From contig NC_086097.1 in NCBI RefSeq assembly GCF_963921235.1, positions 171,370,001-171,434,000 of the forward strand: a DNA stretch of 64,000 nucleotides, in the 5' to 3' direction. Every line of letters begins with the position of its first letter. The stretch's first letter is position 1. Origin of the DNA: Mobula hypostoma (taxonomy: Eukaryota). The notes beneath the pieces were generated by a model. It saw nothing but the letters and a program-made list of their open reading frames with translations. It was not told the origin of the DNA and searched no databases. Shown piece by piece: positions 1,135 to 56,303 of the stretch. A program made the translations under genes and the position numbers.

Positions 1135-2390
1135 GACCACAAGACCATTAAACATAGGGGGCAGAATAAGGCCATTTGACCCATTGATTCTGCTCTTCCT
1201 TTTGATCATGGCTGATATATTTTCCCTCTTAACCTCATTCTCCTGCCTTCTCCTCATCATTAGAAATCAAGAAATTGTCAACCACTGCTTTAAATGTACA
1301 CAATGACTTATCCTCCACAGCCATCTGTGACAATAATTTCCACAGCTTCACCACTCTCTGGCTAAATAAATTCCTCCTCATCTCCGTTCTAAAGGGATGA
1401 ACTATTCTGAGGCTGAGTCTGCTGAATAACTCAAATGGCAGAAGAGTTCAATCTGAACAAGTGAGAGCTGTTGCACTTTGGTGTTGGTGGGGGGGTGGGG
1501 GAGGTGTCAAATAAAAGGAGGGAGTATGCAGTTACTGTTAGACCTCATGATATTGAGGTACAGAATGATCCTGGGGACCAGATCCATAGTTCACTGAAAG
1601 TAGCTACCCAGATTGTTAAGGTGGTCAGGAAGGCATGTTTGCCTTCATTGGTAAGGGTGCTGAGTAGAAGAGTAAGGATGTAATGCTGCAGGTATACAAT
1701 TTTTTAATCAGGCCATATTTAGAGTATTATGTGCAGTCCTGAAGAAGGGTCTTGGCCCAAAACATTAACTGTTAATATATTTCCATGGATGTTCTGTGAC
1801 CTTCTGAGTTCCTTCAGCATCTTGTGTGTGTTGCTCTGAATTTTCAGTAGCTGCAGAATCTCTCGCGTGTATTATGTGCAGTTCTGGTTGTCCCATTATA
1901 GAAGGATGTGGAGACTATGCTGAGGGTACAGAAGAGTTTTACCAGGATGTTGCCAGATTAGAGTGTATCAAATACAAGGAAAATGGACAAACATGGGTTA
2001 TTTTCTCCGGAGCAGTAGAAGCAGAGGGGAGACCTGATAGAGGTTTCTAAAATTATGAGAAGTAAAGGTAGGTTTTCTCCAGGGCTGAAATACCAAACAG
2101 CTGAAGAAATGCCCCTAAGGTTAGAGGGAGAATGTTTAAAGGTAATGTGAAGGGCGCATTTTTATTTACGCAGGGTGTGGTAGGTACTTGGAATGAGTTA
2201 CCAGGAGTAGTAGTGGAAGTAACTAGTCTGGTGGAGTTTAAGGGACCTGTAGATAGATGAATGAATATGAAGGGCATTGAGGGATATGGATGGTACACAG
2301 GAAGAGGATGTTCAGTATAAATCGGCATCAACATCAGCATATCCCTATGGGCCAAGTGGTTTGTCCTGCACTGTACTGTTCTATGTTCAA
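1135..2390. mobile_element. Cluster of old CR1 3' fragments (minus about 1135-1415, plus about 1420-2390) with a short Penelope-type repeat at about 1734-1865
   Basis: Degenerate RPHLEY/WSP/GDLIEV-type sequence and ttctatg tail. Confidence 0.65.
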
Positions 2391-2546
2391 ACTAAAGGAG
2401 ATCAGCATTATTAAGAAATTGAGATTTAAGCCAGTCAGTGACCTGTAAACACAAAATAATCTGCAGATGCTGTAAAAGATCAAAGCAACACTTTCAGTAC
2501 GCTGGATGAACTCAGCAGGTCGGGCAGCATCAGTCAGAAATGATGA

Positions 2547-2580
2547 GTCGATGTTTCAGGCCGGAACCCTTCGTCAGGAC
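2547..2580 (-). ncRNA. Minimal type I hammerhead ribozyme-like motif in a Penelope-type terminal repeat (best-preserved copy; activity doubtful)
   Basis: Minus strand reads GTC-CTGACGA-AGGGTTCCGGCCT-GAAA-CA-TC-GAC: CUGANGA and GAAA cores, stem II, UH site and GTC/GAC stem I; the stem III palindrome ACGT has decayed to ACAT. Confidence 0.65.
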
Positions 2581-2979
2581 ACTGACACTTCAGTCAGAGA
2601 CCTGCCTTGATCTTGTGAACCACAGAGTAATAAACTAGGTGCCATAGAAATAGAAGTGCTTTTATTGCTATTTTCCAGAATTTTATAGATCATGAAGTTT
2701 CTAGAAATTGAAGAGTGGCATGAAAGTCAGGAAACTATAGATTGATTAGCATAAAATGAACAGTAGGCCACATGCTGGAGGTTCCTATAAAGAATTGGAT
2801 AACAGTACACCTTCACAATATCAGTAGATGACTCAAAGTCAACATAGACTGCTGGAAAGGAAATCATGTTTGACAAACCAGTCCTTTGAGGCCGTAACTG
2901 GCACAAGAGATAAGGGAAATTTAGTGATGTGTACTTGGATTTTCAGAAAGCCTTTGATAAAATCCTGCATAAAGGAGAT

Positions 2980-5387: not shown

Positions 5388-7059
5388 AAATGGAATTAGT
5401 GTAGATCTGATGAGCTGAAGGGCCTGTTTCTATGCTGAACAAATCCAAAACTCTCAGAATGAGTGTTTCCATTGTAGCTTAGTCTCAACAGGCATGATAA
5501 AATTCTTGTGAAATATGTTGGCATCTTTGACGATTCAACCTTACAAAACTATAGAAAGATGATGACCCTTTTGTGCATTGAATTGGTAGTAGCTCTGTGT
5601 AACAGGAATTCATTGATCAAATTGCCTTAAATTCTCCTTATAGTTTGACACCTTACTCAAGTACTGCCAGTCCACATTTCAAAGCTACAATTAAATTTGT
5701 CTTCACTATTATATCTACTAGCATATTCCAGATTTGAACCATGAAGAAACTTTGTCTTCCTTTTCACTTTTGGTTCTTTTGCTAGTTACATTTGTTCAAT
5801 GCCTTCTAGTTCTTGATCCACGCCACTGGTGAGAACAGCTTTTCTCTACCTGATCAGTCTATACCCTTCATTATCTTAAATACCTCCATTAGATTCTATT
5901 GCAATGTTCTTCATTTGAAGGAGAACAACTTTTCTCTATGATTAACGTACATTCTCTTGGAACATTTTTAGTAAATCTCTTCTGCACTCCTTCAAAAGTT
6001 TACAGCTTTCCCAGTGTGTTGTGCCCAGAAATGGATCCTCTCAGTCAGCTCCACCACTGCTTGTGTTCTTCTTAGTCTTAGCCTATCTCAAACATTCCTT
6101 GTTCCCTCAGTTTTTTCTCATTCTTGGCAACGTAAACTATGTTTGATTTATAACATGTCCTACAAGAACATCCATGATGAGGGACAGGGAATTATGGTGG
6201 CCCAAATGAAAGGACTCAACTTCAAACATAAACTGTCCATTTCCCTCCACAGATGCCGCTGGATCTTTAGAGTTCTTCCAGTTCTTTTGTGTGTTGCTTC
6301 AGCCTCCAGCATCTGCTGCCTTTTGTGTCCACTGTTCTAATGACGCTCAGCATTAGAGCAAGGAAGAGCATCTCACCTTTTGGCCAGATGCATCATAGTC
6401 CACTAGACTCTACACTTCAGATGATCAGCCTTTACAGTTTGTATCAGAACTGGCCAGCTCTGATGAAAGATTGTCAACCTGAAATGTAAATGATTCCCTC
6501 TGTGCGCCCTCCACAGATGGCTACTTCCAGCATTCGCCGATTTTATTTCAGGCTTCTAGTGGCTGCTGTTTTTTTGACATTGTACATACTTTCAGGTCAG
6601 AAATAGGACAACTGGTGTAAGGATAAAAGAAAGCTGAGGAGAGTCTGGAACTCTCCCTATAAACAGATGGTGAGGGCGGAAACCTTCAGACATTTAAAAA
6701 CCGTTTTGCTGAATGTAATAAATCCCAAAATGATCACAGAACTATCAGACCATGATGAACACAATGGACCAAACAGTCTCCTACTCTGCTATTAATATTT
6801 ATGACTATGATTATATGGTTAACATCTAGTACAAGCTTAAAGACCTGCTGAAGTGCTCCAGCATTTTGTGTGTGTTGCTTTGTATTTCCAGCATCTGCAG
6901 AATTTCTCATGTTTATGGTATGTTGAAAAGGAACTCCAAAGATATATGAAGACAATCAATGTTATTGCTTCTGCTGAAATTGCTACATTGTGAAATAGAT
7001 TACAATTATGGAACTAGTGGGCTGAATGACCTGTTTCTCAGCTGTGTAGCTCTATTCAC

Positions 7060-10281: not shown

Positions 10282-11799
10282 AGCATTGAAACAGACCCTA
10301 CAGCCCATCTCACCCATGCTGATCTTTTCCTTCAGTGACACTTTTCTTATCCCATATACTTTCATATCCATCATCTCTGCCTTGAATAGACCCAGTGACT
10401 GATCTTCCATGGACCTGTTGGGTATTCACTCCTCCCTGGATGAAGAAATGAGGCCCTGACCCCTCATTCTAGACATGCCAAATTGATAGGATTTGGGTGA
10501 TAGGTGAAATATTTAAGGAGGTCCTGAGAGGGAATCTCTTCACTTAGCGGGTGATACTAGTGTGAAACAAGCTACTAGCGATGTGGAAAATGTGGACTAA
10601 TTACAACATTTAAGAGAAGTTTAGATTGATATATGGATGACAGGGGAATGGAGGGATTTGGTCCAGGTGCAGGTAGATAGGACGAGGCAAAACAATGGGC
10701 CAGCACTGACTAGATGGGCTAAAGGACTCGTTTCAGTTCTGTAGTATTCTATGTCTCTAAATTAGTGAACACATTCACCTCACGTCTCCCTTGTTGGACC
10801 CTGTAGGAAAGTTTTACATTGCGATGCAATTGCCTCACATTCTTCAAAACAATGGAAGATGAGCGAAGCCCTACCGCCCCCCACCCCGCCACATGCACCT
10901 CCAACAACCCATTCCCTCCCAAGCCTGTTCCACCATACCATGAGGTCATGACTGATCTGCACATTAACTCCATATGCTTAAAACTAAATCTATCATTCCT
11001 AAGATGAAAACTCACTGTCCATGCAGCCACAATTTCTATTTGCAGAAGAAAAATCAAAGGGTATCGCTTTAAGGTGAGAAGGGAAAGATCTAAAAGGACA
11101 CAAATTACAACTCCATAGCCTAGAGGGTTATGCATATATGGAGTGATTTGTTAGAGGAAGTAGTTGAGATAGGTACGTTGACAGCATTTAAAAGACACTC
11201 AGATAAGTGCATGGATAGGAAAGTTTTGAATGGATATGTGCCACACAAGGACAAATGGAATTAGCTTAGGTAGGCACCTTGGTCAGCATGGACCTTTTTG
11301 GGGACAGCACTGTGTCTATGCTCTTTGGTTCTATGATTCTTTAAGTGAGTTCCAAATTTCTACCATCCTGTATGTACAGACATATTTCTTGATGTTAGAA
11401 CTGAAATTAAACCAGGGAAAGCTGGAAATATTCAGCAGGTCAGGCAGCAACTATGTAGAGAGTATCAGATAAGATTAACGCCAACCTGAAACGTTAACTG
11501 AGATTCAATCTCCACAGCTGCTACCCAATTTGCTGAGTGTTCCCCACCCAGTTTGATTTTAGATTTTCACAATCTACAATTATTTTTCCCTTTGCTTATT
11601 AAGTTCTGAGCTCAGTAATTATACTCCTTAGTAGAATACTGTCATCTCAGTTCCAAAAATTCAGGCTTTCAGAGACAATTTATAAAGAAATTTAATTTCC
11701 AGGACAGTTAATGAATGAGAGAAAATTAATCTGTTGTCACACAGCTCAGCCCAAAGTCTTAAGTTAATCAACTTTTGATGCAATAAATGTTTTGGCTGA

Positions 11800-13408: not shown

Positions 13409-15570
13409 AAATTGGATAGGCAAGAACTATCTACGGGAATAAGGGTGAGGGGACACTTGACTGCAACTTAATATCGCAAGGGGTTCTGACAGCATGGATT
13501 CAGATTTCTTGATGATATACTGTAGATGGGGGCCAAGCCAGTCTATACCAGCTGGATTAACCCACTGCAGAGGAGTAAGTGTAACCAAACGCACAGTGCT
13601 GAGGATATGGGACTGGGAGAGGAACCTTACAACGCAGCTGAGTGGGTCAATTGGATTGCTCTGTGAGCTGGCACAGAGTGGACCAATCAATCTGTCTGTT
13701 AATCCATGTCATTCGTATGGCCAACTTGTCTACCTGCACCTTCTCAGGAATTGCAGCACTATATTCTGCATTCTGCTTTGTTCTTTACTACCTCAGTGTA
13801 ATTGCGTACAGAATGTGATGCTTGGATGGCACGCAAAACGAAAACACATCACTGCTTTTGTGCATATTGCTGGAGAAACTCAACCGCTTGAGCAGTATTT
13901 GTTGACATTTTGGGTCGAAATCCTGTATCACAATTGAGAATGAAAGGGCAGGTGGCCAGTATAAAGAGGTGGGGGGGGGAGGGAGTCTAAGGTGATCGGT
14001 TGACTGAGAGATGACAGGTTGTGTCAGGAGTTTGGAGTTAGTTGGAGTTGGGACAGTGGAGTGAAATGGGGGGAGTGGGATGGTGGAATGTGAAATATCT
14101 GGAATGAGAAATGAGATAAGCAACAACATGAAGGACCACCAGGGCTAGGCTGTGATAAGTAAAGGTGAATAGAGAAGCCATTAGGGGAGAGGGGAATGGC
14201 AGATGGAATCAAAACCAGAGAGGGGATGGATGGTGAAATTGTGGATGGACTGTGGTTGGATGGTGGAAAGTAAGCCAGAAGTTTGACTGAGTGAATAAAT
14301 AAGAACAGAAAATGCTGGAAATATTCAGCAGGTTGGGAAGAGCAACAGAGTTAATTTTTCAGGTTGAAGGCACTTCATCAGAACTGGGAAGGAGAAAAAA
14401 GAGGCACACTGAACTGGAGGGAGGATCACAGGGTTATAGCGGGTGTGTCTCTGATAGGGTAAAACTGGGATCTACACAGAGATTAACTGTAAACAAGGCT
14501 ACATTGGAGCATCAGTAGCTGAGAAGAGACCGATAGAAGTGCATAAGATTATAAGAGGCACAAATAAATAGTTTGATCTATTTCCCAGGTCTGAAGTTTC
14601 TAATACTTTCAGACATGCATTTAAGGTGAGAGGGATGAAAGTTCAAAAGGTATGTGCCTGGCAAGTCTTTTTTAAAATATAGAGCCTGGAATGTGCTGCC
14701 AGGTGTGATGATGGAGGCAGGTGCAATGGAGGCAGTTAATTAGTTCCTAGATAAGCACATTAATATACAGAGAACGAAGAGATATTGATCATGTGCAGGC
14801 AGAAGGGATGGCACAATATCATGGGTTGAGGGTTATGTTCCTGTGCTATACTATACTACGGTTTAGATTCTAAAGTGACTTGGTCAGTGAGTGAGAGAAA
14901 GGAGATATAGAGTGAGAACACAGGCAAAAGAAATTAGACAAGAGAATGCAGGAGTTAGAAATGCAGAGCAGGAAGACATGGTCAGATCAGGCTGGGCTTC
15001 TTCCCCACTTCCAGAGAGAGAACAATGGAAAATAAAACACAATAAACTGAGCCAATATCACCAATGGATGAGTGATACAAAATGTGGCTTGCACTCAGAG
15101 CTGCTTATTGCTGAGAATTCTGTAACAAATGGTGAGAGTCTGTTTCCATTGGTTGGATAGATAGTAACAAGAGAGAAATAAATTAAATCAGTCACCAATA
15201 AAAGAGCATTTTGATCACTGGAGCTATGGAATGAACAATCTTTCCGTTAACTGTGAGTACTGTTTGTAAAGTGAGCTGGTTCAGTATCAGTATTATTTCC
15301 TGCCTAGACATTGATAGGTCACATAAGCATCCCTAATAGGGTCCTAATCACTATTAAATTGCTACTGTCACGATAGTGCAGTCAGAAGTGCTCTTCTGAG
15401 ATTGGTTTGGTGCTGAGCAAGTTTTGCTTTACACCGTACAAGGCAGTCTTGGTAATGCATGAGACAGGCGCTGCGTGACTGAAATGGAAAGTATCCTGTC
15501 TTGCTGAATAAGCGCAAAACTGCTCTAGGAAAGCTACAGGAAAACACAACAAAAGCAGGGTGATTAAAAA

Positions 15571-17342: not shown

Positions 17343-17360
17343 CTGAGGAGGAAAACAAAA

Positions 17361-36822: not shown

Positions 36823-36879
<57 letters not shown>

Positions 36880-36880
36880 T

Positions 36881-36939
<59 letters not shown>

Positions 36940-39050: not shown

Positions 39051-39072
39051 GGAATGGTCGGAGGAGGGTTAC

Positions 39073-40189: not shown

Positions 40190-40476
40190 ACCTATCAGCC
40201 CACTGAATCTCTGCTGACCATCACACGCCCAATGACACTAAATCCATATTCTACTCCTTGGATCTGCATTGGATCTCCTCCCACCCAGATCATACTGCTA
40301 TCTCCCCATTACAGTTAAATAATCTACCAGCCACCACATCATCAGAAACTGGAACACACAGAGGAAACCCATAGAGTCACAGGAAGAACGTGCAATCTCC
40401 ACATTGACAGCACTCAATGTTAGGATCGAAACTGGGCCTTTGGAGCCGTGAGACACCATTGCACTATTGTGTTGCC
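40190..40476 (-). mobile_element. V-SINE (HE1-like) remnant
   Basis: Minus strand has B-box-like gtttcgatcc and V-core-like tgtggagattgcacgttcttcctgtgactctatgggtttcctc. Confidence 0.7.
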
Positions 40477-40793
40477 TCCAGATACCAGCATTTATCTCTC
40501 CATAAATTCTGCTACTTAGGCCATGAAATATTTTGTGTATTAAATAAAGTATCAACAATGAGGACCCTGAAATCAGTAGATCATAACATAATCTTTCATT
40601 GATTTTTTTGACAACTCATATGTAATACCTAACCCAAAGTCCACTCAATTAGATAGGTAAACTTCCCTCAAATCAAGGACCACACCCCATGGAGTGAATT
40701 CAAAAAACTCCTGAAATGATACTTGCATCTCCCACATGGCAAGTGAGAATAATTTGCAACAGGAACAGCCTCCTGTTTCTGGGGATTGCTTAC

Positions 40794-40915
40794 CTGCCCG
40801 TACTTTGCATTTTCACACACAAATGTTTCATAGGGAATTGGAAACATCGGAGAGTGATCATTCTTATCCAGGACTCCTATGTGTACCAAAACAGAGGTAA
40901 TCTTCTTTGAGTCAT
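40794..40915 (-). CDS. cdh19: Cadherin exon, EC4/EC5 junction (NDSKKITSVLVHIGVLDKNDHSPMFPIPYETFVCENAKYGQ)
   Basis: Acceptor ctttctccag|AT, donor CAG|gtaagc; 122 nt; DxNDxxP Ca2+-binding motif and YETFVCENA. Confidence 0.95.
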
Positions 40916-41074
40916 CTGGAGAAAGGAAGGGATAATGAAGAAGGGTTTACTAATATTTATACCTCTTTTTCCTCTAAGCCTAATCACTTCTCTTCTGACA
41001 ATTTTGCTCAATGCCTGCCATTGCTTAAAGACTGTTGCTGATTTTAAAAGATTTTCCATTTGTTTCACTCATGG

Positions 41075-41346
41075 CAACAGACCCTTCAATCTGAAGATCA
41101 GTGTCCATTTACATTAATCCTAAACTGATCCCATTTAATTCTCCCTACAATCCTATAATCTAATCACCCACAAATTCTCCCATTAGGGTTAATTAACTTA
41201 CCAACTTGTCTACTTTTGGGATATGGAAGGAATTGAAGCGTCCAGGGGAATCAATGCAATCACAGTGAGAACATGCATTAGACAGTGCCAGAGATCAGAA
41301 TTGAACCTGGGATATTGGAGCTATGAGGCGATATACCATTGTGCCA
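41075..41346 (-). mobile_element. V-SINE (HE1-like) remnant
   Basis: Homologous to 40190-40476; B-box ggttcaattc. Confidence 0.6.
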
Positions 41347-41411
41347 GCCAGAATGAGCTGATTAGTTGGATTGTCTTTTTAACACCAGTTTCTGAATTTG
41401 ATCATCTATTA

Positions 41412-42100
41412 GGCGGAGAAGATGGCGGCACGACGGTGGCGCGTGTGACCTCTCCGGTGACGAATATCTGTTATCTGTCAAGTAGGGGACCGTGCACAAT
41501 TCTGATTTGATGGAGATGGACGTGAGAGTACAGAGGAACATCTGGAAAACTTCTGAAATGCCCGCTTCGCTGCCGCTGCTACTGTGTTGTAACCGGAATC
41601 TCCAGAGCAGAAGGCCCCGAAATTCTTGGCTTTGCTTGTTTCAGCGGCCGGGGCAAGGTCGAAGGTGCTCGGCAGACGATAGCACTCAGGAGGCTATATT
41701 GGAGGGGCTGGTCGGAGGCTCGAAGTTTTTGGACGGATGGACTCAGTGTCGGCTGTGGTCGGCTGCTTCCAAGGCATCGACAAGTTGACGGTGCCTGGAG
41801 GTTTATGGCAGGGAGTTTCTCCCTTTTGCCACCTGCTATCAGGGACTCGGGAGTCGATCGACTCAGGGACTTTTCAGACCTTTTTTACCGTGCCCATGGT
41901 TTGTTCTTCATGAAATTATGGTATTGCTTTGCACTGCTGTAACTGTATGTTATAATTATGTGGTTCTGTCAGTGTTAGTCTTTGGTTTGTCCTGTTTTCT
42001 GTGATATCTCTCTGGAGAAACATTGTATCATTTATTAATGCATGTATGCATTATAAATGACAATAAAAGAGGACTGAGTGTTCTCATAATCTAAATCTAA
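41412..42100 (+). mobile_element. About 690-bp non-autonomous retroposon (SINE-like, no tRNA head recognised), copy 1
   Basis: Highly similar and colinear with 48750-49438; starts GGAGAAGATGGCGGC; ends gacaataaaagaggactgagtgttctcataatctaaatctaa. Confidence 0.85.
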
Positions 42101-42130
42101 GCTCACAGTATTGATTGAGTAGTGACTCAG

Positions 42131-42993
42131 TGTGACGAGAATACACATAAAATTAAGATGTTTGCTGGCCTGGGTTAGCATCAGTGACATCAGCAAGTGG
42201 TCTGCCACCTGTCCCCAGGGGAAGGAGAGATAAGGAACAATGGAGCAGCGTCTGGAGATGTGTAATGAAGGGACGGGGGAGAGAGAGCTGTCTGGAGCGG
42301 CTCCCCCCTTTGAACCTTGAACTGTTTGAAGTGATGGACAGGCGATACCCCAGCAGGGGGATAAAAAGGGACCGGTTCGCTAAGGCAGGACACACGCCAC
42401 CCGAGGTAACGAGACCCAGGAAGCGGTACGCCTCTGACGAGTCGGTGGGAAGTACTAGACAACGGCCAGGGTGGAAAGGTACGATCAGCGGGAACCCGGT
42501 GTGTGTCCGCCCTTGCCTGGGTGCCGGGTTCTCTGCAGAGGATCGACCGCATCTGGAGGAGGGGTCACAGTCGGTGACCTCAGGTGACATCACCAAGGAC
42601 CTGCCCAAAAGCTGCTTGTGAGCCATATCGCCGGTCTGTGAGTGAAGCCATGTCTGAATGATCAGTTGTTACTGTTCTCCCTCTCTCTCTCCCCCCACGT
42701 TGTCCATCGCCATGGAAACGATTACTGCGAACTGAACTACTAAACTGGACTGAACTTTGAGTCACTTTGAAATTTGGTCATTTACCCCTAGATAACGATA
42801 GAGCTTGATTGATGCTGTTATCTTAATTCTGTGCACATGTGTGTTTATAATCGCTGAACTGTTGCATTTATTATCCTTTCGATTACTGTGTTGCTTGTTT
42901 CTTTAATAAAACTTTCTTAGTTCTAGTACTCCAGACTCCAACTGAGTGATCCATTTCTGCTGGTTTGGCAACCCAGTTACGGGGTACGTAACA
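42131..42993 (+). mobile_element. Solo LTR (863 bp)
   Basis: TGTGACG...CGTAACA termini; 5-bp TSD CTCAG at 42126-42130 and 42994-42998; ATAAAA at 42361 and AATAAA at 42905-42910. Confidence 0.9.
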
Positions 42994-44667
42994 CTCAGTA
43001 ATAACAAGTTATGTTTTATATAATTTACCACATGATATGTAGGCATCACAGGTAGAAGAGATACTACCCTTTTGTAACTGTCCCTGAAAAACGTGCTGAA
43101 CCATCTTCTGGAACATCTGCAGACCTGGTAATGTAGGTTCTCCTAGATATGGGATTCTTAGGCTGAAACCTAGTAATGAGGAACAGTGAGATATACCCAA
43201 AACTAATTGGTGTGTAAGTGTTATCCTTCAAAGTACTTGCATGATTACTTACATGATAGTACCTCATTTAAATAGAGATGATGAGTGATTCGTGGTCTCA
43301 AGGACACAGAAAACTAGAAGTAATAGGATATTTATTATAACATGCAGATAATATGAAATGGAACAAGTAATCATACTTGACAGTTTGATTGCAATTTTGA
43401 ACCTCTTCCATGAATGGTATTGGTTTGTTGCCATGTACTGATATAAGGTAAAATGAAACTATGTGCGCCACCCAAGCCGATCATACCATGAGTGTATTGA
43501 GGTAGTAAAAACAAAATAGAATGCAGAAGGTACTGTTGCAGCCATGGAGAAAGTGCATTTCAGGTTGGCAAATAAACTGCAAGGGTCATGAGTAGATCGG
43601 GAGATCAGTTGTTCATCTTTAACATAGAAGAGGTCCATTCAATAGTCTTATAACATTACCAATTATACCAATTTTTATCAATGCACCATAGAAAGCATTC
43701 TGTCTGGATGCATAAAGGCTTGGTATGACAACTGCTGTGGACACAGCTCAGCATATCGCAGGAACCAGTCTCCCCTCGACGGATCTATACTTCAAACTGC
43801 TGCAGTAAAGTAACCTGCATAATTAAAAATCTCACCCACCTCAGACATTCTTTCTTTTCCCCTCTCCAATCGAGCAGAAGATACAAAAGCCTGAAGTCAT
43901 GTACCACCAGGCCCAAGGACAGCTTCTATCCCACTGTTATCAGACTCTTGTATGGACTTTTTGTTCCAAAATATGGATCTTAGGCCTTGCAACCTACCTC
44001 ATTATGATCTTGCTTTTTATTGTTTACCTTCATTACACTCTTCTGGTAGCTTTTACTCTTTATTTTTCATTGTTATTGTTTTACATTATTCTTTCTCAAT
44101 GCACTGTGTAATGATTTGATCTGCATAAACAAGCTTTTTACTGTATCTTGGTACGTGACAATAATAAACCAATGCCAATATAACCACAAGGTAGAAAGTG
44201 TACTTGAGTTTAGTGCTATGTGCTTTCAAACTTTTGTATCTTCTGTTCAATGGGAGAGGGCAGGGAGATGAGAGAATAACAAGGGTGGGAGGGGTGTCCT
44301 TGGTTATGTCGACTACTTTTCCAAGGAAAAAGGAAATGTAGATGGAGTCAAGGGAGGGAAAGCTAAATTACATGATGGACTGGGATAAGAATAGAAAATT
44401 GAAATTATGAGAGAATTTGCTAGATACAGTTTAGCATAGAGTCACCACACTCCAGCACCATTGATTGTGTGGTAATTGTATGTTTTATATCTAATGTCAA
44501 TGGATTTTTATTAACCAAAACTATTAAGGAATAAGGAATATTAGGTTAGGTCACAGATTGATTATGCTTCCAAATGATAGAACTGGTTAGGGAAGATGTG
44601 GACTGAATGGTGTTCTCTTCCTCAGAGATGCAGGAAGATGGAAGATCAAATCTTCCTCTCTCATCTA

Positions 44668-46800
44668 AGCAACACACAAAAAAATGTTGGAGGGACTCAG
44701 CAGGCCTGACAGCATCTATGGAAAAGAGTAAATAGTTGACATTTCAGGCCGAGACCCTTCAACAGGACTGGTAAAAAAAAGATGAGAAGTCAGCTCAAGA
44801 AGTTGGGGGAGGGGAGGAAGAAATACAAGGTAGTAGATGATAGGTGAAACAGGGAGAGGGATGAAGTAAAGAGCTGGGAAGTCATTTGGTGAAAGAGATA
44901 AAGGGCTGGAGAAAAGGGATAAGGGGGAATCGGAAAGGAGAGGACAGAAGGCCATGGAAGAAAGGGAAGGGGGAACAGCACCAGAGAGAGGTAAAGAGAT
45001 AAGGTGAGAGAGGGAAATGGGAATGGGAAAGGATGAAGGTGGATGGGGGGAGCATTACAGAAGATCAAAAAATTGATGTTCATGCCATCAGGTTGGAGGT
45101 TACCCAGATGGAGTATAAGATGCTGCTCCTGCAACCTGTGTGTGACCTCATCACAGCAGTAAAAGAGGCCATGGACTGACGTGTCAGAATGGGAATGGGA
45201 AGTAGATTAAAATGGGCGGCCACTGGGAGATCCCGCTTTTTCTGGGGGACAGAGCATAAGTACTCAAAGCAGTCTCCCAATCTACGCCAGGTCTCACCAA
45301 TATACAGGAGGCCACACTGGATACAGTAGATGACCCCAACAGACTCACAGGTGAAGTGTCGCCTCACCTGGATGAACTGTTTGGGGCCCTGAGTGGTAGT
45401 GAGGAAGGAGGTGTAGGGGCAGGTGTTGCACCTGTACCACTTGCAAGGATAAGTGCCAGGAGGGAGATCAGTCGGGAGGGATGAATGGACAAGGGAGCCA
45501 TGTAGAGAGCGATCCTAGTGGAAAGCAGAAAGTGAGGGGGAGGGAAAGATGTGCTTGGTTGTGGTATTCTGATGGAGAAGGTGGAAGTTATGGAGCATTA
45601 TTTGCTGGATGTGCAGGCAGGTGGATGGTGTGAAGGCAGATGTGTGTGAAATGGAAGAAATGTGGTTGAGGGCAGTATTGATGGTGGAGGAAGGGAATCC
45701 CCTTTCTTTGAGCAGGGAGGACATCTCCTTAGTTCTGGAATGAAAAACCTCATCCTGAGATCAGATACGACAGGGACGGAGGAGTTGAGAGAAGGGGATG
45801 GTGTTTTTATAAGTAACGGTGAGAAGAGGTATAGTCCAGGTAGCTGTGAGAATCAGTGGGTTTATTAAAGATATAGGTAGATAAGCTGATGCAAGAGATG
45901 GAAACAACAATTGAGAAAGGGGTGGGAGGTAAATTTGAGGGCAGGGTGGACGTTGGAGGCAAAGTTGATGAAGTCAACAAACTTGGCCTAAGTGCTGGAA
46001 ACAGCACCAATGCAGTCATTGATATAGCATAAGAAAAGTAGGGGCATGATACTGGTGTAGGCTTGCAACATAGACTGTTCCACATTGCTGTAAAAAAGAC
46101 AGACACAGCTAGGACCCAAGTGAGTGCCCATGGCTACACCTCTTGTTTGAAGGAAGTGGGAGGAGCCAAAGGAGAAATTATTGGGAGTTAGGACAAGCTC
46201 TGCAGATGGAAGAAAGTGGTGGTGAGGGGGAGCTGGGTTGCGTATGGTATCAAGAAAGAAAAGGCGAGTTTTGAGGCCTTTCTGGTGGGGGATGGAGGAG
46301 TATAGGGACTTGACATCCATAGTGAAAATAAGATGATTGGGGAACTTGAAATAATTGAAAAGATCAAGAGCCTGTGAAGTGTCAGTGTTGTAGGTAGGAA
46401 GGAACTGAACCAGGGGATATAAAACTGAGTTGAGGTATGCAGGTACAAGTTCAGAGGACTAGGAACAAGCAGAAACAATAGGTCTACCTGGACAGGCAGG
46501 TTTATAGATCTTGAGTAGGAGAAAGAAATAGGAGTTGCAGGGTTAAGGAACTATGAGGTTGCTGGTAGTGGACAGGAGATCCCCAAAGTTAATAAAGTCG
46601 GTGATGGTGTGGGAGACAATGGCCTGGTGCTCCTTAGTGGAGTTCATTTTGAAGGGTAGGTAAGTGGAGGTGTCTGACTGTTGTTGCCTGGCCTCTGCAA
46701 GGTAGAGTTCAGTCCACCAGACTTCAACGGCACTCCCCTTATCTGCGGGTTTGTTGCTGAGTGTGGAGAGACTGGAAAGCAATGCGTTCGGAAGGAGTGA
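44668..46800 (-). mobile_element. Decayed Penelope-like element (RT + GIY-YIG endonuclease + terminal repeat)
   Basis: KPADKGSAV, MDVKSLYSSIPH, FLQTRGVAMGTHLGPS, YINDC, KPTDSHSYLDYTSSH; GIY-YIG region FTCESVGVIYCIQCGLLYIGETWRRLGD; LGNLQPDGMNINF. Confidence 0.9.
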
Positions 46801-48026
46801 GGTTGGAATAGGAGAGAGGAGTAGTGAAGTCAAGATGGCTGATGGCTCTTTGGCAGTAGTGGGGTCCTGTCTGAGGGGTAGGTAATCCCATATACAACTT
46901 TTTCTCATCAATCCTTCACTGTGCTATCTCTTGTCTTGTTGTGTGGTGTTGTTCTTCTCATCGGCACTGGTTTTCCATCTGGTTTATGGGTTTAAAGAAA
47001 AGGTTCAGGTCTCTAACGAGCTGTTATAAATGTCTGGCATGGAAGGCAATGCACCCAAAATGGGTAAGTGTGATTAGAATAGACAGGTACAATGATCAGC
47101 ATGAACACCCTCAGCTGAAGAACCCATTTCTGTGTTGCACCACCCTATGATTCTCTATGATGAGGAGGTGCTGGACTGCTTGAATCTGTATTGAAGTACT
47201 ACTCAAGAAATTAGTCCTACTAACTGCTTTTGATGGAGATAGATCACATAACATAATAAATGAACTGAAAGGATTAACATAATAACATTATTGCCTTCCA
47301 CCGTGTGCCAGGTTTTGAGGACGTTCAAGTTTTGGATGCTGAAGAGAGAATGATGGTCAGATTAATGGCTCTAGGTAATACACACAAAATGCTCGAGAAG
47401 GATTACAGCTCAATATGTTGACTATTTACTCTTTTCTATAGATGCTGCCTGGTCTGCTGAGTTCCTCCAGCATTTTGTGTGTGTTGCTTGGATTTCCAGC
47501 ATCTGCCGATCTTCTCTTGTTTGAGATTAATGTCTCTGTTCATTCTGCTTTGCAAACTATAGGTAATAGCAGCTTTCTGATTGTATTACTAGATTAATAA
47601 TCCAGAACTATCAAACAATGCACAGAAAAATCTCAATGCAATTGGAAAAATGTTTAAGCAATGGAATTGTTACTGAATTACAACTCCTTCCTTGTACATG
47701 TAAAATACAAGACCCTCATCAGAACTGTTATGAACTAAATTAAAGAAATTAACAAAATAATTATTTGGTGAAATTCAGCCTGATGTAGGAAGCTGCTATT
47801 GAAAATCAAAAACTAGATGATTAAGAACGAACTTTTAAAATGGAAACAAAATAGTCGATGGTGTAAATCTGAAAGAGAACTGTAAAGTGCTGGAAACACT
47901 CAGTAGGTCAGGCAGCACCATTGGCGAGTGAATGAGAGTTAACATTCCAATTTAATGATTATTTCAAAGACACCCGACCTGCCGAATGGCTCCAGCATTT
48001 ATTGGTGTTACTGAGTATGAACTTAC

Positions 48027-48163
48027 TTGCTTCTGAAGCCCACACTGATACATTGTACCAAGGGATCTCCTCTCGGTCAAGGGATTGAGAAGTTATGATG
48101 GTCCCGTTGTTTGCATCAATGATGAAGGCACCACCCATATTTGTCTGACGATTAATGGAATAC
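48027..48163 (-). CDS. cdh19: Cadherin exon, EC4 (YSINRQTNMGGAFIIDANNGTIITSQSLDREEIPWYNVSVWASEA)
   Basis: Acceptor cctgtgcag|G, donor GCAA|gtaagt; 137 nt; LDRE motif; completes the split Arg codon AG|G. Confidence 0.95.
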
Positions 48164-48749
48164 CTGCACAGGAAGCAAACCACCCAATTTTAAAACATTT
48201 TGTCTTTGTAATGTAAATCCACAGCAGCACCGCACACTCTACAAATAAATAGTCTTCCCAAAATAAATTTGATTAGAATTCAATCTCTTTCCTGAACTTA
48301 AGTTAAAAGCAGCAAAATCTCATTTTTAAACAACGCAATCTCCAGACTGACAGAGCTGAATCATAGTTGAGCATTCACTTGCAAACATATTTATTGCAAT
48401 AAAAATTTGGCAAGCTTCAAGTACCCTCCTCTCTGTTCAAAGTACAGAGCATTTCAGACACAGGGTTACTGGACTGAAACAATAACTATTTTCTTCTCTT
48501 CAGATGCTGCCTGACTGAATTGGCTATTGTGAGCTTATGTTAGAACTTCTATATGTATATGATACTGTTTAGACCATTTAATATATACTTTGTTGTGAAC
48601 TTGAAGTTCAATGATCTGGAAGACTATGGACCAAGCAGGAGCTGACACACTGGCTCTTTCTTGATTGGCATGGAAACAATAGTCCGATTGGCCTTGTGAC
48701 TTAATTTTATCAACTGGAATAAAATAAATTGAAATAATCCTCCTGGGCG

Positions 48750-49438
48750 GGGGGAGAACATGGTGGCATGACGGCAGCGTGTGCGGCCACTTCGGTGATG
48801 ATACCTGTTATCTGTCAAGTAGGGGACCATGCACAATTCTGATTTGATGGAGATAGACGTGAGAGTACAGAGGAACATCTGGAAAATTTCTGAAATGCCC
48901 GCTTCGCTGCCACTGCTACTGTGTGGTAACCAGTATCTCTGGAGCTGAAGGCCTCGAAATCCTCGGCTTTGCGTGTTTCAGCGGCCGGGGAGAGGTCGAA
49001 GGTGCTCGGCAGAGGATGGCGCTCGGGAGGCTGTATCAGAGAGGCTGGTCGGAAGCTCGAAGTTTTTCGGACGGATGGACTCAGTGTCGGCTGTGGTCGG
49101 CTGCTTCCAAGGTATTGGCAAGTTGACGGTGCCTGGAGGTTTATGGCAGAGAGCTTCTCCCTTTTGCCGCCTGCTATCGGGGACTCAGGAGTCGATCGAC
49201 TCGGGACTTTGAGACTTTATTTTTACCGTGCCTATGGTCTGTTCTTCATCAAATTATGGTATTGTTTTGCACTGCTGTAACTATATGTTTTAATTATGTG
49301 GTTCTGTCAGTGTTAGTCTTTGGTACGTCCTGTTTTCTGTGATATCACTCCAGAGAAACATTGTATCACTTCTTAATGCATGTATGCATTTCTAAATGAC
49401 AATAAAAGAGGACTGAGTGTTCTCATAATCTAATCTAA
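48750..49438 (+). mobile_element. About 690-bp non-autonomous retroposon, copy 2
   Basis: Colinear with 41412-42100, same (AATCT)n tail. Confidence 0.85.
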
Positions 49439-50879
49439 ATACACCAGTTGAGATCCAAACTATAATTGACACAAATACACAAAGTGCTTTGAGAAAACAT
49501 CAGGAAGTCACAAGCGATTCTGCATATGCTAGAAATCTTGAGCAACACACATATAAAATGCTGGAGGATCTCAGCACGTCAGGCAGCAACTGTGGCAGGA
49601 AATGGAAATCAAGCTTCCAGTCTGAGATCCTTCATCATCACTGGCCTGCTGAGTTTCTCCAGAATTTCACATGATACCACCTGTTGATCCACCATTTCAA
49701 TGCTGATGATTAAGAACCTATCAGTGCTAATCCTATTAACCAACACTACGCACAACCTTTTAAACACTGAGGAGTTGTGCTCATATAGATAGTTTGACAT
49801 CTTTAGAAAGTTTCTGCCTCCACAGCTCTCAGAGAGTGTATTCTAGAACAATTGATGTTTTATTCCATTCTGTCACCATGGAAACAGATGCAGGGAGCAT
49901 CACCTTGCATCTTTCCTGCTTATTACACATTGCCAATGGACAAGCATTACTGTTAGGGATTATTCTGGAGTGATTAAATTATGGAGAACATAATTATGGA
50001 TTAATTAAAATCCATAACTGGTTCTCCGTTGTCTATCCTGTCTGTTATATCCTCAAAGAATTTCAGCATATTTGTCGGGGAATTTCCGCTTAAGGAAACT
50101 TTGCTGACTTTGGCATTTTATTGTGTGCCTCCAAGTGCTCTGAGATAAAGCCTATATACAATATAACTTTAACTGAGATTTTAAATGTACTGTTATTGGT
50201 TGATTATTGTCACATGTACTCCAATACAGTGAAGCACTTGTCACGTGTACAGTTCATACACATCGAATCATTACACAGTGCATTGTGATAGAACAAGGTA
50301 AAACAATAACAGAATACAGAACATAACAGCTACAGAGAAAGTACCATGCAGGTAAACAATAAGGGGCAAGAACATAGTGAGGTAGATTGCGAAGTCAAGA
50401 GTCCAAATTATTGTTCCAGGGAACCACTTAAGTAGTCCTATGAAACTAGTCATTGGGTATAGGACATTCTGATCCTGTACCATAGAAACTGCACAGCGGA
50501 AGACAATAGATAAATGTTCATATTAATTGGAGCCCATTGAAAACTTCAGGATGTGTGCAGGAAAGACATTCAATGGCCATTTCCTGTATAAAACCCATTT
50601 TAAAATGTATATCCCAGACTCTTAATGCATAATTGAGGACAACAACACACACACAAAATGCTGGAGGAACCCAGCAGGCTGGGCAGCCTCTGTGGAAAAA
50701 AGTACAGTCGACGTTTCAGGCTAAATGAGGACATGTCTGATTTGTCTCTATTAGGCCCAGGTCTGATCTGATTAGTTGTATTGTATGTTAAGGGAGACAT
50801 AGCATAATACTGTAACAAAGGAGGGCATATTTGGGAGCTAGGAGATTGTGCTCAGAAGCACTTGTGAACAGACACCAGC

Positions 50880-52700
50880 ACTGAAAATTCAAAGGGCTTG
50901 AAGGTTTCAAGGCAGCTGAAGAAATTGTGGTGATATTAGCAGTGATCTTTCAAGACTCAACAGATTTTGGAATGGTTCAAAATGAAAAAAAGCAAATGTT
51001 GCACCACTCCTTAAAAAGGGAAGGAGGGAAAAGACAGGAAAGTATATACTAGTCAGCCTCACTTCGTTAACTGGTAACATAATGGACTCCATTATTAAGG
51101 ATGAGGTGTCAGTATACCTAGATGCACACAATAAAATGCTGGTGTCACTATAGTTTCCTTTAGGGAAAATCATCCCTGACAAATATGTTAGAATTCTTTG
51201 AGGAAACAACAGGAAAGGTAATAACAAGACCTTGGTCAGACCCCACTTGGAGTACTGTGTTCGATTCAGGTCACCTCACTGCAGGAAGGATGTGAATACT
51301 ATACGAAGAGTGCAGAGGAGATTTACAAGGATGTTGCCTGGATTGGGGAGCATGCCTTATGAGAATAGGTTGAGTGAACTTAGTCTTTTCTCTTTGGAGC
51401 GACGGAGGATGAGGGGTGACCTGATAGAGGTGTATAAGATTATGAGAGGCATTGATCATGCTGATAGCCAGAGGTTTTTTCCCAGAGCTGAAATAGCTAA
51501 CATGAAGGGGCATAGTTTTAAGGTGCTTAGAACTAGGTACAGAGGGGATGTCAGGGCTATGTTTTTTTTACAGAGAGTCGTGGTGCGTGGAATGCAATGC
51601 TGGTGATGGCAGTGGAGGCGGATACAATAGGGCCTTATAAGAGACCCTTAGATAGGTACATAGAGTTTAGGAAAATGCGGTAGGGTAATTCTAGGCAGTT
51701 TCTAGAGCAGATTACATGGTTGACACACCATTGTGGGCTGAAGGGCCTGTAACATTCAGTAGCTTTCTATGTTCTATATTCTAAAGACAAAGGAGAGTTA
51801 GAGGACGTAGATTATTTGCATTTTCAGAAGGGCTTAAACAAGGTGTTGAACATGAAGCTGCTGAACAAGAGTATGTGGTATTACAGGAAAAGATACTAAC
51901 AGGGTAAGAAGATTGGCTGACTAGCAATAGGGAAAGAGTGGGAATAGATGTGTCTTCTAGATGGCTGCAGATGACTAGAGGTGTTCCACAGGGGTCAGTG
52001 TTGGGACCGCTTCTTTTCACGTTATATGTTTATGATTTGGATGATGGAATTGATGGCTTTATGGCCAAATTTGTGGAAGATACAATGATAGGTGGAGGGG
52101 CAGGTAGTGTTGAGGAAGCAGAAAGTCAGCAGAAGAACTTAGACAGATTAGGAGGATGAGCAAAGAAATGACAGATGGAATACAGCAGAGGGATGAGTAT
52201 GTTTATTGCACTTTGGTAGAAGGAGTAAAGGCATAGACACCTTTCTATATGGGAAGCAAATTCAGTAGTCAGAGGTGCAAAGGGCTTGGGAGTTCCAGTG
52301 CAGGATTCCCTGAAGGTTAACTTACAGTTTGAGTCAGCAGTAGGAAAGGCGAATGCAATTCATTTTGAGATGATTAATGTATAACTACAAAGATATAATG
52401 CTTAGAATTTACAAAAATATTGGTCAGACCACACTGAATTCTTTTGGGCCCCATATGTAAGTAAGCATGTGCTGGCACTGGAAAGGATCCAAAGGAGTTT
52501 TACAAGAATAATCCCAGGAATGAATGGCTTAATGTTTTGGGCCTGTATCTACCAAATATTGTAAGAACTAGACAGAGTGGATGTGGAGAGGATGTTTCCA
52601 ATAATGGGGAAGTCTAGGACCTGGAGGGCACAGCTTTAGAATGCTGTGGAGTACAAGTTATTAGGTATATTTAAAGAGGAAGTTGATCAGTTCCTGATCA
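50880..52700 (+). mobile_element. Decayed CR1 RT fragment with a younger CR1 3' piece (about 51225-51782) nested inside
   Basis: Host carries RGVPQGSVLGPLLFTLYVYDLD; insert carries RPHLEYCVRFRSPH...RRMRGDLIEVYK and its own tail; the host resumes at gacaaaggagag. Confidence 0.8.
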
Positions 52701-52839
52701 GAATCAGGTTTCATATCACTGGCATATGTTATGAAATTTGTTAACTTTATGGCAGCAATACATGATAAATTAATATAGAGAGAAAAAAAACAAGTTGCTT
52801 TAAGTATATATACGTATGTATGTATATGTGTACCAAGTA

Positions 52840-52929
52840 TTATTTATAATACTTATTTTAACTTAACTACTTTTTATATATATATATATATACACAAAAT
52901 AGTTAAGTTAAAATAAGTATTATAAATAA
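52840..52929. repeat. Perfect 30-bp AT-rich inverted repeat with a (TA)n spacer
   Basis: 52840-52869 is the exact reverse complement of 52900-52929; 30-nt spacer. Confidence 0.92.
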
Positions 52930-55005
52930 AAACCGAAATAAAAAAGCATGGGATAGTGTTCATGGATTCAATGTCCATTTAGAAATCGAATGGCAGAGGG
53001 GAAGAAGCTACTCCTGAATTGCTGAGTTCCTGTTTCCTGACGGTAACAGCGTGAAGAGGGCATGTACTAGGTTGTGGGAATCCTTAATGATAGACATCAC
53101 CTTCCTAAGGCACCTCCCCTTGAAGATATCTTGGATTCTAAGGAGGCTAGGACCCATGATGGAGCTGATTAATTTTACTCAGCTATGGAGGGAAAGGTAG
53201 GAGAATGGGGTTGAGGGGGAAAATAATTCAGTATGATCAAATAGCTGAGCACTCTATGGCTTGAGTAGTCTGATTCTGCTCCCATGTATTATGCTAATAT
53301 TGAACCCCCCCCCACCCCCCACCGCTATCTTCATAGCTAAACAGTAAGAAAAGTCTGTTTAACCTTGAAAGCAGTTTCAGAAATGGTTGACTATTGAAGG
53401 CAGAGACATGAAAGTATTTCCTCTGTGGGTGTTGAATCTTTGGAATTCATTGACCTAGAGGGCTTGTGTGGGGAGCTAAGGTTTTCGTGAGGACCTGAAA
53501 TGGGTAATAGTTGTTTAATGAGAGTTATTAATCATATAAGAGTTCCCTATGCTTTTTCCTTGTGATTCGCTCTTCATATTGCAGTCTCCCAGTGCTTTCC
53601 ATTTAAACTTGTTAAGTTTTCTTTGATTGACTGAGGATTTCCCTGTTACTTGTATTATTTAAGCAGATGGTTATCACGGGGCCCTAGTTTTGAGAATCTT
53701 TGTCTCACAGTGTCACTCAGCTGAACCACTGATGTTCTTTTGGAATTCATATGAATAGACTCTGATTGCTGTCTCTACATTGGAATCTATCTTTCCTCTG
53801 CACTTGAGTTCCCACATCGTGAGCAGTAGAGCAATGGATGCTGTGTCAATGAATATGATCAGAGCAGAGATGAACCAATTTTTGGATTACTGAAGTGTTA
53901 ATAGTCACAAAGGGAACTGGAGCTGAGACCCAAATCAGATCAGTTATCTGTTAGTGGGGTAGCATCAAGGTTCTGAAAGGTAAACTTCTGCTCCTTATCC
54001 TTTTTGGAATTGATGTAGATTCAAAGGTTCTCAGAAATCAAGGAGGTTATGGCCATTTTACTTAGTGTTACAAGAACAAAGAAAGGCAAAGAAAAAGTTG
54101 TAATAATCTCCAACTTAGATTAGAGATAAAGCACACTGCTAGTACATAACATATGAAATAACCAGGTTCAAGTGGTGTGACACCTGCTGCAGAAAAACTG
54201 AAGCTTCTAGAAAATACAGAATAAGTTGTATTAGAAAATTTACTGAACAATTGCACACATACACTATTGGTGATTACATAAAAATCAGAAGCAAGCAAAG
54301 GAAAGTTAAACTACAACAAAAATAACAATTCTACACTCTAATCCAACACCCTTGACATACTTGTGTATGGAATAATCTGTGCAATAGCATGCAGAAAGTA
54401 GTGTTTCATTATATCTCGAGTTACACACACACACACACAATACTGCAGAAACTCAACAGGTCAGGCAGCATCTTTGGAAGAGAAAGAACAGTCAATGATT
54501 GTGACAGAGACCCTTTGTCAGGACTGGATTGAAGAGCAGAAGAAGCCAGAATTAAAAAGGTGGGGGTACAGGGAGGAGTTCATGCCTGTAGGTGATAGGT
54601 GAGACCAGGTGACAGGGAAGGTGGCTGGTGCATGCGACAATAATAATCAAAATAATCTTCAGTTTTCTCTGCTAGTGAGAATACACCACAACACTTCAAT
54701 TATTGGAAAATAATGTAAACATGCTTAAACCAGATTACATACCATACATCTGCTCAAATGTAAGGAGCTAAGTTTCTTCTTTTATCAACCACCTCAGCCC
54801 TTAAAGCTTTTTGCCAAGGTGGCTTCACGCGAGGAACAATGGTGTCCTGTTGTTACTGAACAAGTCACCGTTACCTCAGTAATACATGTTAACCTCACAT
54901 AGTAGAACACAAAAGCCTTACGCACTAGATTTCTGACCAAATCTTGATGCAATTGACTCATTTGACTAAGCTGACAAGAAATTGAACTGCACAAGTTTAA
55001 CCCTG

Positions 55006-56303
55006 CAAGAGAAAATCTGCAGATGTTGGAAATCTGAGCAAAACACACAAAATGCTGAAGGAAATCAGTAGGCCAGGCAGCATCCATGGAAAAAGGTATG
55101 GTTGACATTTCGGGCCGATTCCTCCATCTCCATTGTATCTGCTACGCCATCCTCTTTTCTCAATTCCTCCTTCTCCACCACATGTGCTCTCACGATGAGG
55201 CTTTTCATTCTTGCTTCTAATTTTATGTAATGTCCTCCTTTTTCAAAGAAAGGGGCTTCCTTTCTGCCACCATCGAAGTTGCCCTCAACCGCATCTCTTC
55301 CATTTCATGCACCTCTGCTCTGACCCCACCCTTCCACCACCCTACCAGGGATAGGCTTCTCTTGTCCTCACTTACCACCCCACCAGCCTCTACGTCCAGC
55401 ACATAATTATCCGAAACTTTCGCCATCTCCAACGGGATCCCATCACCAAGCAGATTTTTCCGTCCCCCCACTTTCTGCTTTCCGCAGGGATTATTCTTTA
55501 TGCGACTCCCTTGTCTATTCATCCCTCCCCAGTGATCTCCCTCCTGGCAAGTGGAACAAGTGCTACACATGTCCCTACACCTCCTTCCTCACTACCATCC
55601 AGGGCCCTAAACAGTCCTTCCAGGTAAGGCGACACTTCACCTGTGAGTCTGTTGGGGTCATTTACTGTGTTTGGTGTTCCCAGTGTGGCCTCCTGTAGAT
55701 TGGTGAGACCCGATGTACATTGAGAGACCATTTCGTCAAGCACCTGCGTTCCATATGCCAGAAAAGACAGGATCTCTCAGTAGCCACGCATTTGAATTAC
55801 ACTTACACTTCCCATTCCCATATGTCCATCCGTGGCCTCCACTGCCGTGATGAGGCCACACTTAGTTTGGAGGAATAACACCTTATATTCCGTTTGGATA
55901 GCCTCCAACCTGATGGTATGAACATCGATTTCTCAAATTTCCAGTAATTTCTTCCCAACCCCCTCTTCTCCATTTCCCATCCCCTTTTCACTTTTGCACC
56001 TCACGTCCTTGCCCACTCATTGTCTTCCTCTGGTGCTCCTTTCCCCCCTTTCTTTCTTCCATGGCCTTCTCTCTCTTTCCCTAATCAACTTCCCGGCTCT
56101 TTACTTCATTCCTCCCCTTCCAGGTTTCATATGTCACCTAGTGGTTCTCTCTCTCTCCCCCCCCCCCACCTTTTAAATCTACCCCTCAGCCTTTTTTCTC
56201 CAGTCCTGCCGAAGAATTTCAGCCCGGACTGTCAACAGTACTTTTTTTTTCCATAGATACTGTTTGGCCTGCTGAGTTCCTCCAGCATTTTGTTTGTGTT
56301 GCT
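55006..56303 (+). mobile_element. Truncated Penelope-like element with an inverted terminal repeat at its 5' end and a 13-bp TSD
   Basis: GIY-YIG region at about 55630-55760; 55006-55117 is an inverted copy of the 3' terminal repeat; AAGTTTAACCCTG at 54993-55005 and 56304-56316. Confidence 0.9.

What the first reader, a model, noticed from the sequence alone, without database searches (positions are those of the whole stretch)
1734..56240. Minimal hammerhead-ribozyme motif recurring in Penelope-type terminal repeats across the window
Seen: dispersed copies at 1734-1771(+), 2547-2580(-), 6455-6492(+), 14349-14386(-), 36232-36268(-), 44733-44770(-), 50705-50720(-, half), 54490-54527(-), 55101-55117(-, half) and 56201-56238(+). 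Most align to a consensus CAGTC-CTGATGA-AGGGTCTCGGCCC-GAAA-CG-TC-GACTG. This gives both hammerhead core boxes (CUGANGA, GAAA), a GGG/CCC stem II preceded by one extra A, a GUC cleavage triplet, a CAGTC/GACTG stem I and a loop-less palindromic stem III (ACGT). A second variant has AGTT/AACT as stem I (14349-14386; half copy at about 11484-11500), which looks like compensatory change. Established: Penelope-like elements carry minimal type I hammerheads thought to work as dimers through such a palindrome. Inference: these are relics of a self-cleaving RNA-processing system, mostly damaged by CpG decay. No copy here is fully intact. Several lie in the sense strand of the cadherin pre-mRNA.
Basis: partly seen in the sequence, partly recalled or inferred. 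Interest (0 to 1): 0.7.

Follow-up and report, generated by a model that had tools for sequence, protein, structure and literature searches.

The report
Ray Penelope retrotransposon hammerhead relics
The scattered motifs are real, decayed end-pieces of a very abundant Penelope-type jumping gene in a ray genome, carrying an already described tiny self-cutting RNA motif; the copies here are likely inactive, and young copies elsewhere in the genome mostly run across the cut site, so they were likely copied from uncut RNA.

Summary
Observation confirmed; interpretation largely right but known. All listed copies are present; 26 pLTR-type fragments lie in the window (reversed control 0), three at the 3' end of Penelope RT/GIY-YIG relics. 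The genome holds 7,638 exact copies of the hammerhead consensus and at least 73,775 of one young family, plus full-length pLTR-ORF-pLTR elements with a Neptune-type linker. This is the minimal hammerhead of fish Penelope-like elements (Cervera and De la Pena 2014). Subfamilies keep the core and covary in stems I and II; the AGTT/AACT variant is a true subfamily (14 of 14). Inserted copies decay near-neutrally, 61% of functional damage being CpG-type. In nine cadherin gene bodies there is no sense depletion (119 vs 109), so no sign that lone intronic copies cut pre-mRNA. Added detail: of 142 young copies, 134 span the cleavage site, none starts at it, and 54 start within 30 nt at the ribozyme's 5' half. 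A genome-wide count shows only a small, ambiguous excess (about 2-fold, under 1% of copies) at the cut site. The scan noted the same elements and pile-up in other shark/ray genomes. Cleavage itself was not tested.

The parts
44667..46857 (-). 5'-truncated, frameshifted Penelope-like (Neptune-type) element: RT, linker, GIY-YIG remnants, 3' UTR and pLTR; in a cadherin intron, sense
   Evidence: tblastn 58-67% to intact ORF of L062, residues 380-1015; blastn 75-77%; RVT_1 E=6.6e-6, below cut-off
44733..44770 (-). minimal hammerhead in that pLTR; core A6 lost, CpG changes
55144..56303 (+). truncated PLE: end of RT, GIY-YIG, 3' UTR, pLTR; antisense to cadherin
   Evidence: tblastn 64-75% to L062 ORF residues 744-1016
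56201..56238 (+). damaged hammerhead of that pLTR
55006..55118 (-). inverted short pLTR copy (half hammerhead 55101-55117 plus tail) head-to-head with the element above
36171..37114 (-). rearranged PLE fragment (RT and EN pieces) ending in a pLTR; hammerhead 36232-36268 with G8 and G12 lost
1734..1859 (+). short pLTR copy, old main family; G12 lost
2444..2581 (-). short pLTR copy of subfamily B; best-preserved hammerhead in the window (core intact, palindrome broken)
6455..6542 (+). short copy resembling the old U-A stem I variant, damaged
14304..14386 (-). short copy of the U-A stem I variant (AGTT/AACT), damaged stems II/III
11421..11540 (.). head-to-head pair of pLTR fragments with half hammerhead 11484-11500(+)
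50643..50724 (-). short pLTR copy with 3' half of hammerhead
54421..54530 (-). short pLTR copy with damaged hammerhead (54490-54527)
16855..64000 (-). host cadherin-7-like gene (last exon 16855-17343; further exons near 22990-23241, 27921-28145, 40791-40916, 48028-48165, 58461-58718); context only

Best explanation
The motifs are decayed 3'-end fragments (pLTR hammerhead plus tail) of Penelope-like retrotransposons with a Neptune-type linker, and their minimal hammerhead likely cuts only weakly, as a pair or with the element's protein, in the parent element's RNA. Shown: association with RT/GIY-YIG ORFs, presence in both pLTRs of full-length copies, core invariant across four subfamily consensuses with covarying stems, near-neutral CpG-led decay after insertion, no sense-strand depletion. 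Shown for young copies: 134 of 142 span the cleavage site, so reverse transcription likely used uncut (or religated) RNA. About 38% stop within 30 nt at the ribozyme's 5' half. The likeliest cause (about 50%, inferred) is that the element's RNA begins near there and reverse transcription, starting internally at the tail just downstream, runs off its 5' end. Lone copies in the cadherin introns would be passive passengers.
For: Full-length L062: 523-bp direct pLTRs at 96% around a 1043-codon open frame, hammerhead 85 nt before the frame and 298 nt after it; L063 likewise. A sense hammerhead lies 298-731 nt after the longest frame in 18 of 20 fetched long-ORF loci. RVT_1 and GIY-YIG hits. 7,638 exact genome matches, reversed control 0. 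Structure-only descriptor: 28 hit rows in 1.264 Mb, 26 of them this element, 1 in each control. Covariation. Orientation 119:109, p=0.55. 5' ends; 9 of 18 short copies not flagged as inverted have 11-14-nt target duplications versus 12 of 306 mismatched pairs with 8 nt or more. Folding: no monomer stem III; in young copies core GACG pairs with CGUC, hiding the cut site; the active dimer (-11.5 to -16.7 kcal/mol) is far above inactive duplexes (-30 to -34). PMC4209133 (sections read): monomers inactive, dimers weak. PMC11167929 (parts 1-2 read): Anolis PLE ribozyme needs the protein, and unprocessed RNA is the main insertion substrate.
Against: No cleavage or RNA-end data were obtained; the runs laid were contigs not on record as RNA. 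Pfam scores for RT and GIY-YIG are below curated cut-offs. Intact copies lean antisense (9 sense vs 16, p=0.23; Fisher vs damaged p=0.094), so a modest cost of intact sense copies is not excluded. Junctions exactly at the cut site are about twice the neighbouring positions (95 vs 36, 46, 61 raw; p=2e-5), which could be a trace of cleaved templates. Covarying pairs rest on few subfamily events. The transcription-start reading of the pile-up is untested.
Confidence: 0.88

Rival explanations
1. The ribozyme routinely cuts the element's RNA in vivo and sets the ends of the transposed unit, as HDV-like ribozymes do for R2 elements.
For: Core kept across subfamilies with covarying stems. About 2-fold excess of junctions at the cut site over neighbours; 2 of 30 such loci are clean insertions with 13-14-nt target duplications. 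About 20 of the 100 listed broken copies resume exactly at the cut site, counted by eye.
Against: 0 of 142 sampled young copies start at the cut site and 134 span it. The excess amounts to roughly 470 of at least 74,000 copies, not counting two microhomology classes left out by the pattern. 17 of 30 loci were flagged as inverted junctions, where purine-rich arms give G/GA/GAC microhomology that mimics a +1 start. PMC11167929 found no reads ending at the site in Anolis.
Confidence: 0.12
2. The 5'-end pile-up comes from the ribozyme's own structure: reverse transcription stalls at the partner-paired stem I of a dimer, or the new cDNA folds back through stem complementarity and self-primes, giving short and head-to-head copies.
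For: Peak of ends at -34 to -28, the 5' strand of stem I. 19 of 37 such copies were flagged as joined to an inverted arm. Recurrent junctions use GAC/GACT/CGTC complementarity inside the motif. Position is the same with or without the tail (15 of 37 vs 22 of 62), so it is not set by cDNA length.
Against: Ends gather after the enzyme has already crossed most of the fold, not at its 3' edge (3 of 97 at -10..-1). Clean non-inverted copies with target duplications end at the same place.
Confidence: 0.3
3. Some intronic copies were kept by the host to cut or regulate the cadherin pre-mRNA.
For: Five listed copies are sense-strand intronic; this gene has 11 sense vs 5 antisense copies.
Against: Every intronic copy in the window has core lesions. 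Old copies decay almost as fast in the core as downstream. No orientation bias over nine genes.
Confidence: 0.02

Closest known systems
Minimal type I hammerheads (min-HHR) of metazoan PLE pLTRs, incl. fish Xena, Poseidon, Neptune (Cervera and De la Pena 2014, PMC4209133)
   Same: CUGANGA plus one extra nucleotide, stem II, GAAA, palindromic C-G at 15.2/16.2, NUH, short stem I; in both pLTRs; mostly dispersed single copies and opposite-strand pairs.
   Different: No shark or ray appears in the part of the supplementary alignment read (file 1 could not be searched). Stem II is short (4-5 bp). The youngest long-ORF subfamily has G-U and the old variant A-U at 10.1/11.1 instead of the usual G-C.
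Neptune-clade EN+ Penelope-like elements (Craig et al. 2021, PMC8557442, passages read)
   Same: One ORF with RT then GIY-YIG, DKG motif, CX4CxxC linker, partial-tandem pLTRs, inverted 5'-truncated partners, optional 30-40 bp tail.
   Different: Clade assigned by motif only (Nematis also has such a linker); no RT tree was built. Copy number of the pLTR end is very high (at least 73,775 for one young family).
Poseidon element PAc of Anolis (Frangieh et al. 2024, PMC11167929)
   Same: Two 3' end classes (with and without tail) just downstream of the hammerhead; copies made from uncut RNA.
   Different: In PAc the ORF starts inside the hammerhead. Here the core is CUGACGA and the first ATG of the long frame lies about 165 nt after the core.
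Non-LTR retrozymes (bioRxiv 10.64898/2026.07.22.740005, passages read)
   Same: Non-coding, hammerhead-bearing derivatives of pLTRs.
   Different: Those are tandem arrays with one ribozyme per unit. The copies here are dispersed single or head-to-head insertions; no such array is in the window.

Membership tests
PLE minimal hammerhead | Core boxes CUGANGA and GAAA, NUH triplet | tested here: met
   Subfamily consensuses and 7,638 exact genome copies; only 1 window copy keeps them
PLE minimal hammerhead | Extra nucleotide between 9 and 10.1; palindromic 15.2-16.2 with no loop 3 | tested here: met
   A in 148 of 152 copies; ACGU in consensuses
PLE minimal hammerhead | G10.1-C11.1 pair (usual, not universal) | tested here: inconclusive
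   Met in old main and B families; G-U in the youngest long-ORF copies; A-U in the old variant (fixed by the pattern; also window 6455)
PLE minimal hammerhead | Stems I and II supported by covariation | tested here: met
   2.1/1.1 C-G versus U-A in 14 of 14 variant copies where the pattern allowed both; 2.5/1.5 C-G versus U-G; few independent events
PLE minimal hammerhead | Self-cleavage as a dimer or with protein | not testable with these tools
   Only energy estimates
EN+ Penelope-like element | Single ORF with RT and C-terminal GIY-YIG | tested here: met
   L062 frame: RVT_1 E=2e-5, GIY-YIG E=0.0024, both under cut-off; window relics 58-75% identical
EN+ Penelope-like element | pLTR direct repeats, inverted truncated partner, optional tail | tested here: met
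   523- and 922-bp direct repeats; inverted joins and tails
Neptune clade | CX2-5CxxC linker between RT and EN | tested here: met
   CX4CxxC in translations of L061, L062, L065, L066
Neptune clade | RT phylogeny groups with Neptune | not tested
   No named reference set fetched
Non-LTR retrozyme | Tandem units each bearing a type I hammerhead | tested here: not met
   No such tandem array in the window

The most novel reading that the evidence does not exclude
The ray genome is a large fossil record of the Penelope cycle. The hammerhead is kept switched off during reverse transcription by a built-in core-to-cleavage-site pairing (GACG with CGUC). About 38% of young insertions are ribozyme-tipped stubs whose 5' ends mark the element's RNA start or a ribozyme-dimer block, and a small surplus of junctions exactly at the cut site (about 1% or less) would be the first genomic trace of in vivo cleavage by a PLE minimal hammerhead.
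Probability: 0.3. Interest if true: 0.5.

Novelty: new member of a known kind. Interest (0 to 1): 0.2.

Why it matters
The motif and its link to Penelope-like elements are published, and the copies in this window are debris, so the finding as given is ordinary. What has value is the family as material. It has tens of thousands of young copies and near-intact ORFs, and their insertion ends bear on the open question of whether PLE hammerheads cut at all during transposition (PMC8557442 calls their function unclear). The data here say that most copies come from uncut RNA and that intronic sense copies carry no detectable cost.

Tried and rejected
Rfam scan: no hammerhead family matched. Sequencing runs: no RNA holder listed; four runs laid were contigs, with no start/end signal and no interpretable splice joint. 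A first core-versus-flank test gave p=4e-11 but pooled subfamilies misaligned by an indel; redone per family it fell to p=0.08 (old, 81 spanning copies of 185) and p=0.06 (young, 28 of 40). A first 5'-end mapping had an artefactual cluster near -155 and was redone with gapped alignment. Splice-product reading of the pile-up (pyrimidine tract plus CAG just before the motif): 0 of 18 short copies show upstream element sequence joined in direct orientation, so not supported, though a very short first exon is not excluded. Deletion after insertion as the cause of short copies: rejected for the 9 of 18 with target duplications. Length-determined truncation: rejected by the tail/no-tail comparison. 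Lunse et al. (PMC5785218) was not held; I saw only its citation in PMC6765202. Paper searches (listings only for most) showed no title or abstract on shark/ray PLE hammerheads or on the 5'-end pile-up; subscription papers and Repbase are outside the library.
Full report
Observation. The ten listed copies and the extra half copy are in the sequence as described. An iterated nhmmer profile gives 28 related fragments in the window, 26 at E<0.01, and none in the reversed window. All share a conserved block downstream of the motif ending in a TG-rich stretch, some with a further tail. Rfam gave no hammerhead match. Only 2547-2580(-) keeps both core boxes and stems I and II, and its ACGU palindrome is broken.

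Host context. The last cadherin exon is 100% identical to a protein labelled cadherin-7-like of Mobula hypostoma, with other rays and sharks next. Its coding exons run on the - strand from extended position 103418 to 16858. Five listed copies are therefore sense-strand intronic and one antisense; the others lie beyond the stop codon.

Parent element. Three hammerheads end Penelope ORF relics: 44667-46857(-), 55144-56303(+) and 36171-37114(-), with 58-75% protein identity to an intact relative. A window RT fragment found 34,481 candidates in the genome, 150 scored. Of 20 long-ORF loci fetched, 18 have a sense hammerhead 298-731 nt after the longest frame. L062 and L063 are full pLTR-ORF-pLTR units with direct repeats of 523 and 922 bp. 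The L062 frame has RVT_1 and GIY-YIG matches below Pfam cut-offs, a DKG motif and a CX4CxxC linker. PMC8557442 (passages) gives that linker for Neptune and Nematis; Neptune is inferred, with no tree built. The 34-nt hammerhead consensus occurs 7,638 times exactly (control 0), and a downstream 20-mer of the young family 73,775 times.

Structure. The motif reads stem I, CUGANGA, extra A, a 4-bp stem II, GAAA, CG, UC, stem I, which is the min-HHR consensus in PMC4209133 (main text parts 1-2 of 4 and supplement file 2 part 2 read; file 1 not searchable). A structure-only descriptor found 28 rows in 1.264 Mb, 26 from this element, against 1 in each of two controls. Consensuses of the old main, B and young families share the core. 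The compensatory change is therefore real at subfamily level, though it may be one event. No ORF remnant was found beside those 14.

Decay. Among 81 old-family copies spanning the motif (of 185), non-CpG core positions differ in 78 of 716 cells versus 381 of 2839 downstream (p=0.08; base-matched expectation 102). Only 5-17 of 81 keep each of five CpGs, and 146 of 239 changes at functional positions are CpG-type. Selection acts mainly on master elements; inserted copies decay close to neutrally.

Effect on host genes. In nine cadherin gene bodies (1,057,701 nt, partly inferred intronic) 119 copies are sense and 109 antisense (p=0.55). Between confirmed exons only, the count is 93 vs 89 (p=0.82). 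Intact motifs number 9 sense vs 16 antisense (p=0.23). There is no evidence of depletion, but power for intact copies is low.

Energetics. A monomer cannot form stem III. In young copies the lowest-energy monomer pairs core GACG with CGUC at the cut site. The active double hammerhead scores -11.5 to -16.7 kcal/mol against -30 to -34 for inactive duplexes (no tertiary terms). This fits the weak dimer activity in PMC4209133 and the protein-assisted cleavage in PMC11167929 (parts 1-2 of 4 read).

Insertion ends. I mapped 5' ends of young copies chosen only by downstream anchors: 43 from the 1.264 Mb and 99 from loci of the first listed genome matches; some are two arms of one insertion. Pooled, 134 of 142 span the cleavage site, 0 start at it, 54 start at -40..-11 and 13 at -150..-41 (both samples are significant on their own). 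The position holds with or without the tail, and 9 of 18 short copies not flagged as inverted carry 11-14-nt target duplications, so the ends were set at insertion. Against a purely passive ribozyme: genome-wide counts of junctions at -1, +1, +2 and +3 are 36, 95, 46 and 61, about a 2-fold excess at +1 after normalising (p=2e-5). But this is under 1% of copies, 17 of 30 inspected loci were flagged as inverted joins prone to microhomology, and only 2 of 30 are clean target-duplicated insertions.

Mechanism. Shown: anatomy, association with the element, covariation, decay, lack of orientation bias, read-through of the cut site. Inferred: weak dimer- or protein-dependent cleavage in the parent RNA, and short copies arising when internally primed reverse transcription runs off an RNA 5' end near the motif (about 50%) or stalls or folds back on the motif (about 30%). 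[quoted passage not shown]

Verdict. A new host example of a published motif-element association; the window copies are relics. The scan's earlier notes report the same elements and the same pile-up in other shark/ray genomes (my counts preceded that look-up), and none near this window. Interest 0.2.

Noticed in passing
window 28226-30688 (-): An 820-codon uninterrupted CR1-like LINE frame (endonuclease and RT matches) inside a cadherin intron, sense orientation; looks young.
   Followed up: partly
window 25246-26466 (+): RT fragment of another non-LTR element (Rex/L2-like by recall), 264 + 141 codons.
   Followed up: no
L062 (pLTR, just 5' of the hammerhead): A long pyrimidine tract ending in CAG precedes stem I, like a 3' splice site; D. 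virilis has an intron end at the same place (PMC4209133). No spliced form was seen.
   Followed up: partly
L061-L080: All long-ORF (youngest) copies with a hammerhead have G-U instead of G-C at pair 10.1/11.1; the extra A could pair with that U instead.
   Followed up: partly
window 41464-42052 and 48801-49390: Two copies, 90-93% alike, of an unidentified repeat of about 590 bp.
   Followed up: no
window 5172-5386: Tandem array of a 62-bp unit, 3.5 copies.
   Followed up: no
window 62081-63915: Frames that resemble an LTR (gypsy-like) gag/protease remnant by eye; not searched.
   Followed up: no
L063, L064, L066, L070, L071: An internal tandem duplication of about 210 bp in the proline-rich N-terminal part of the PLE ORF is present in several copies.
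   Followed up: no
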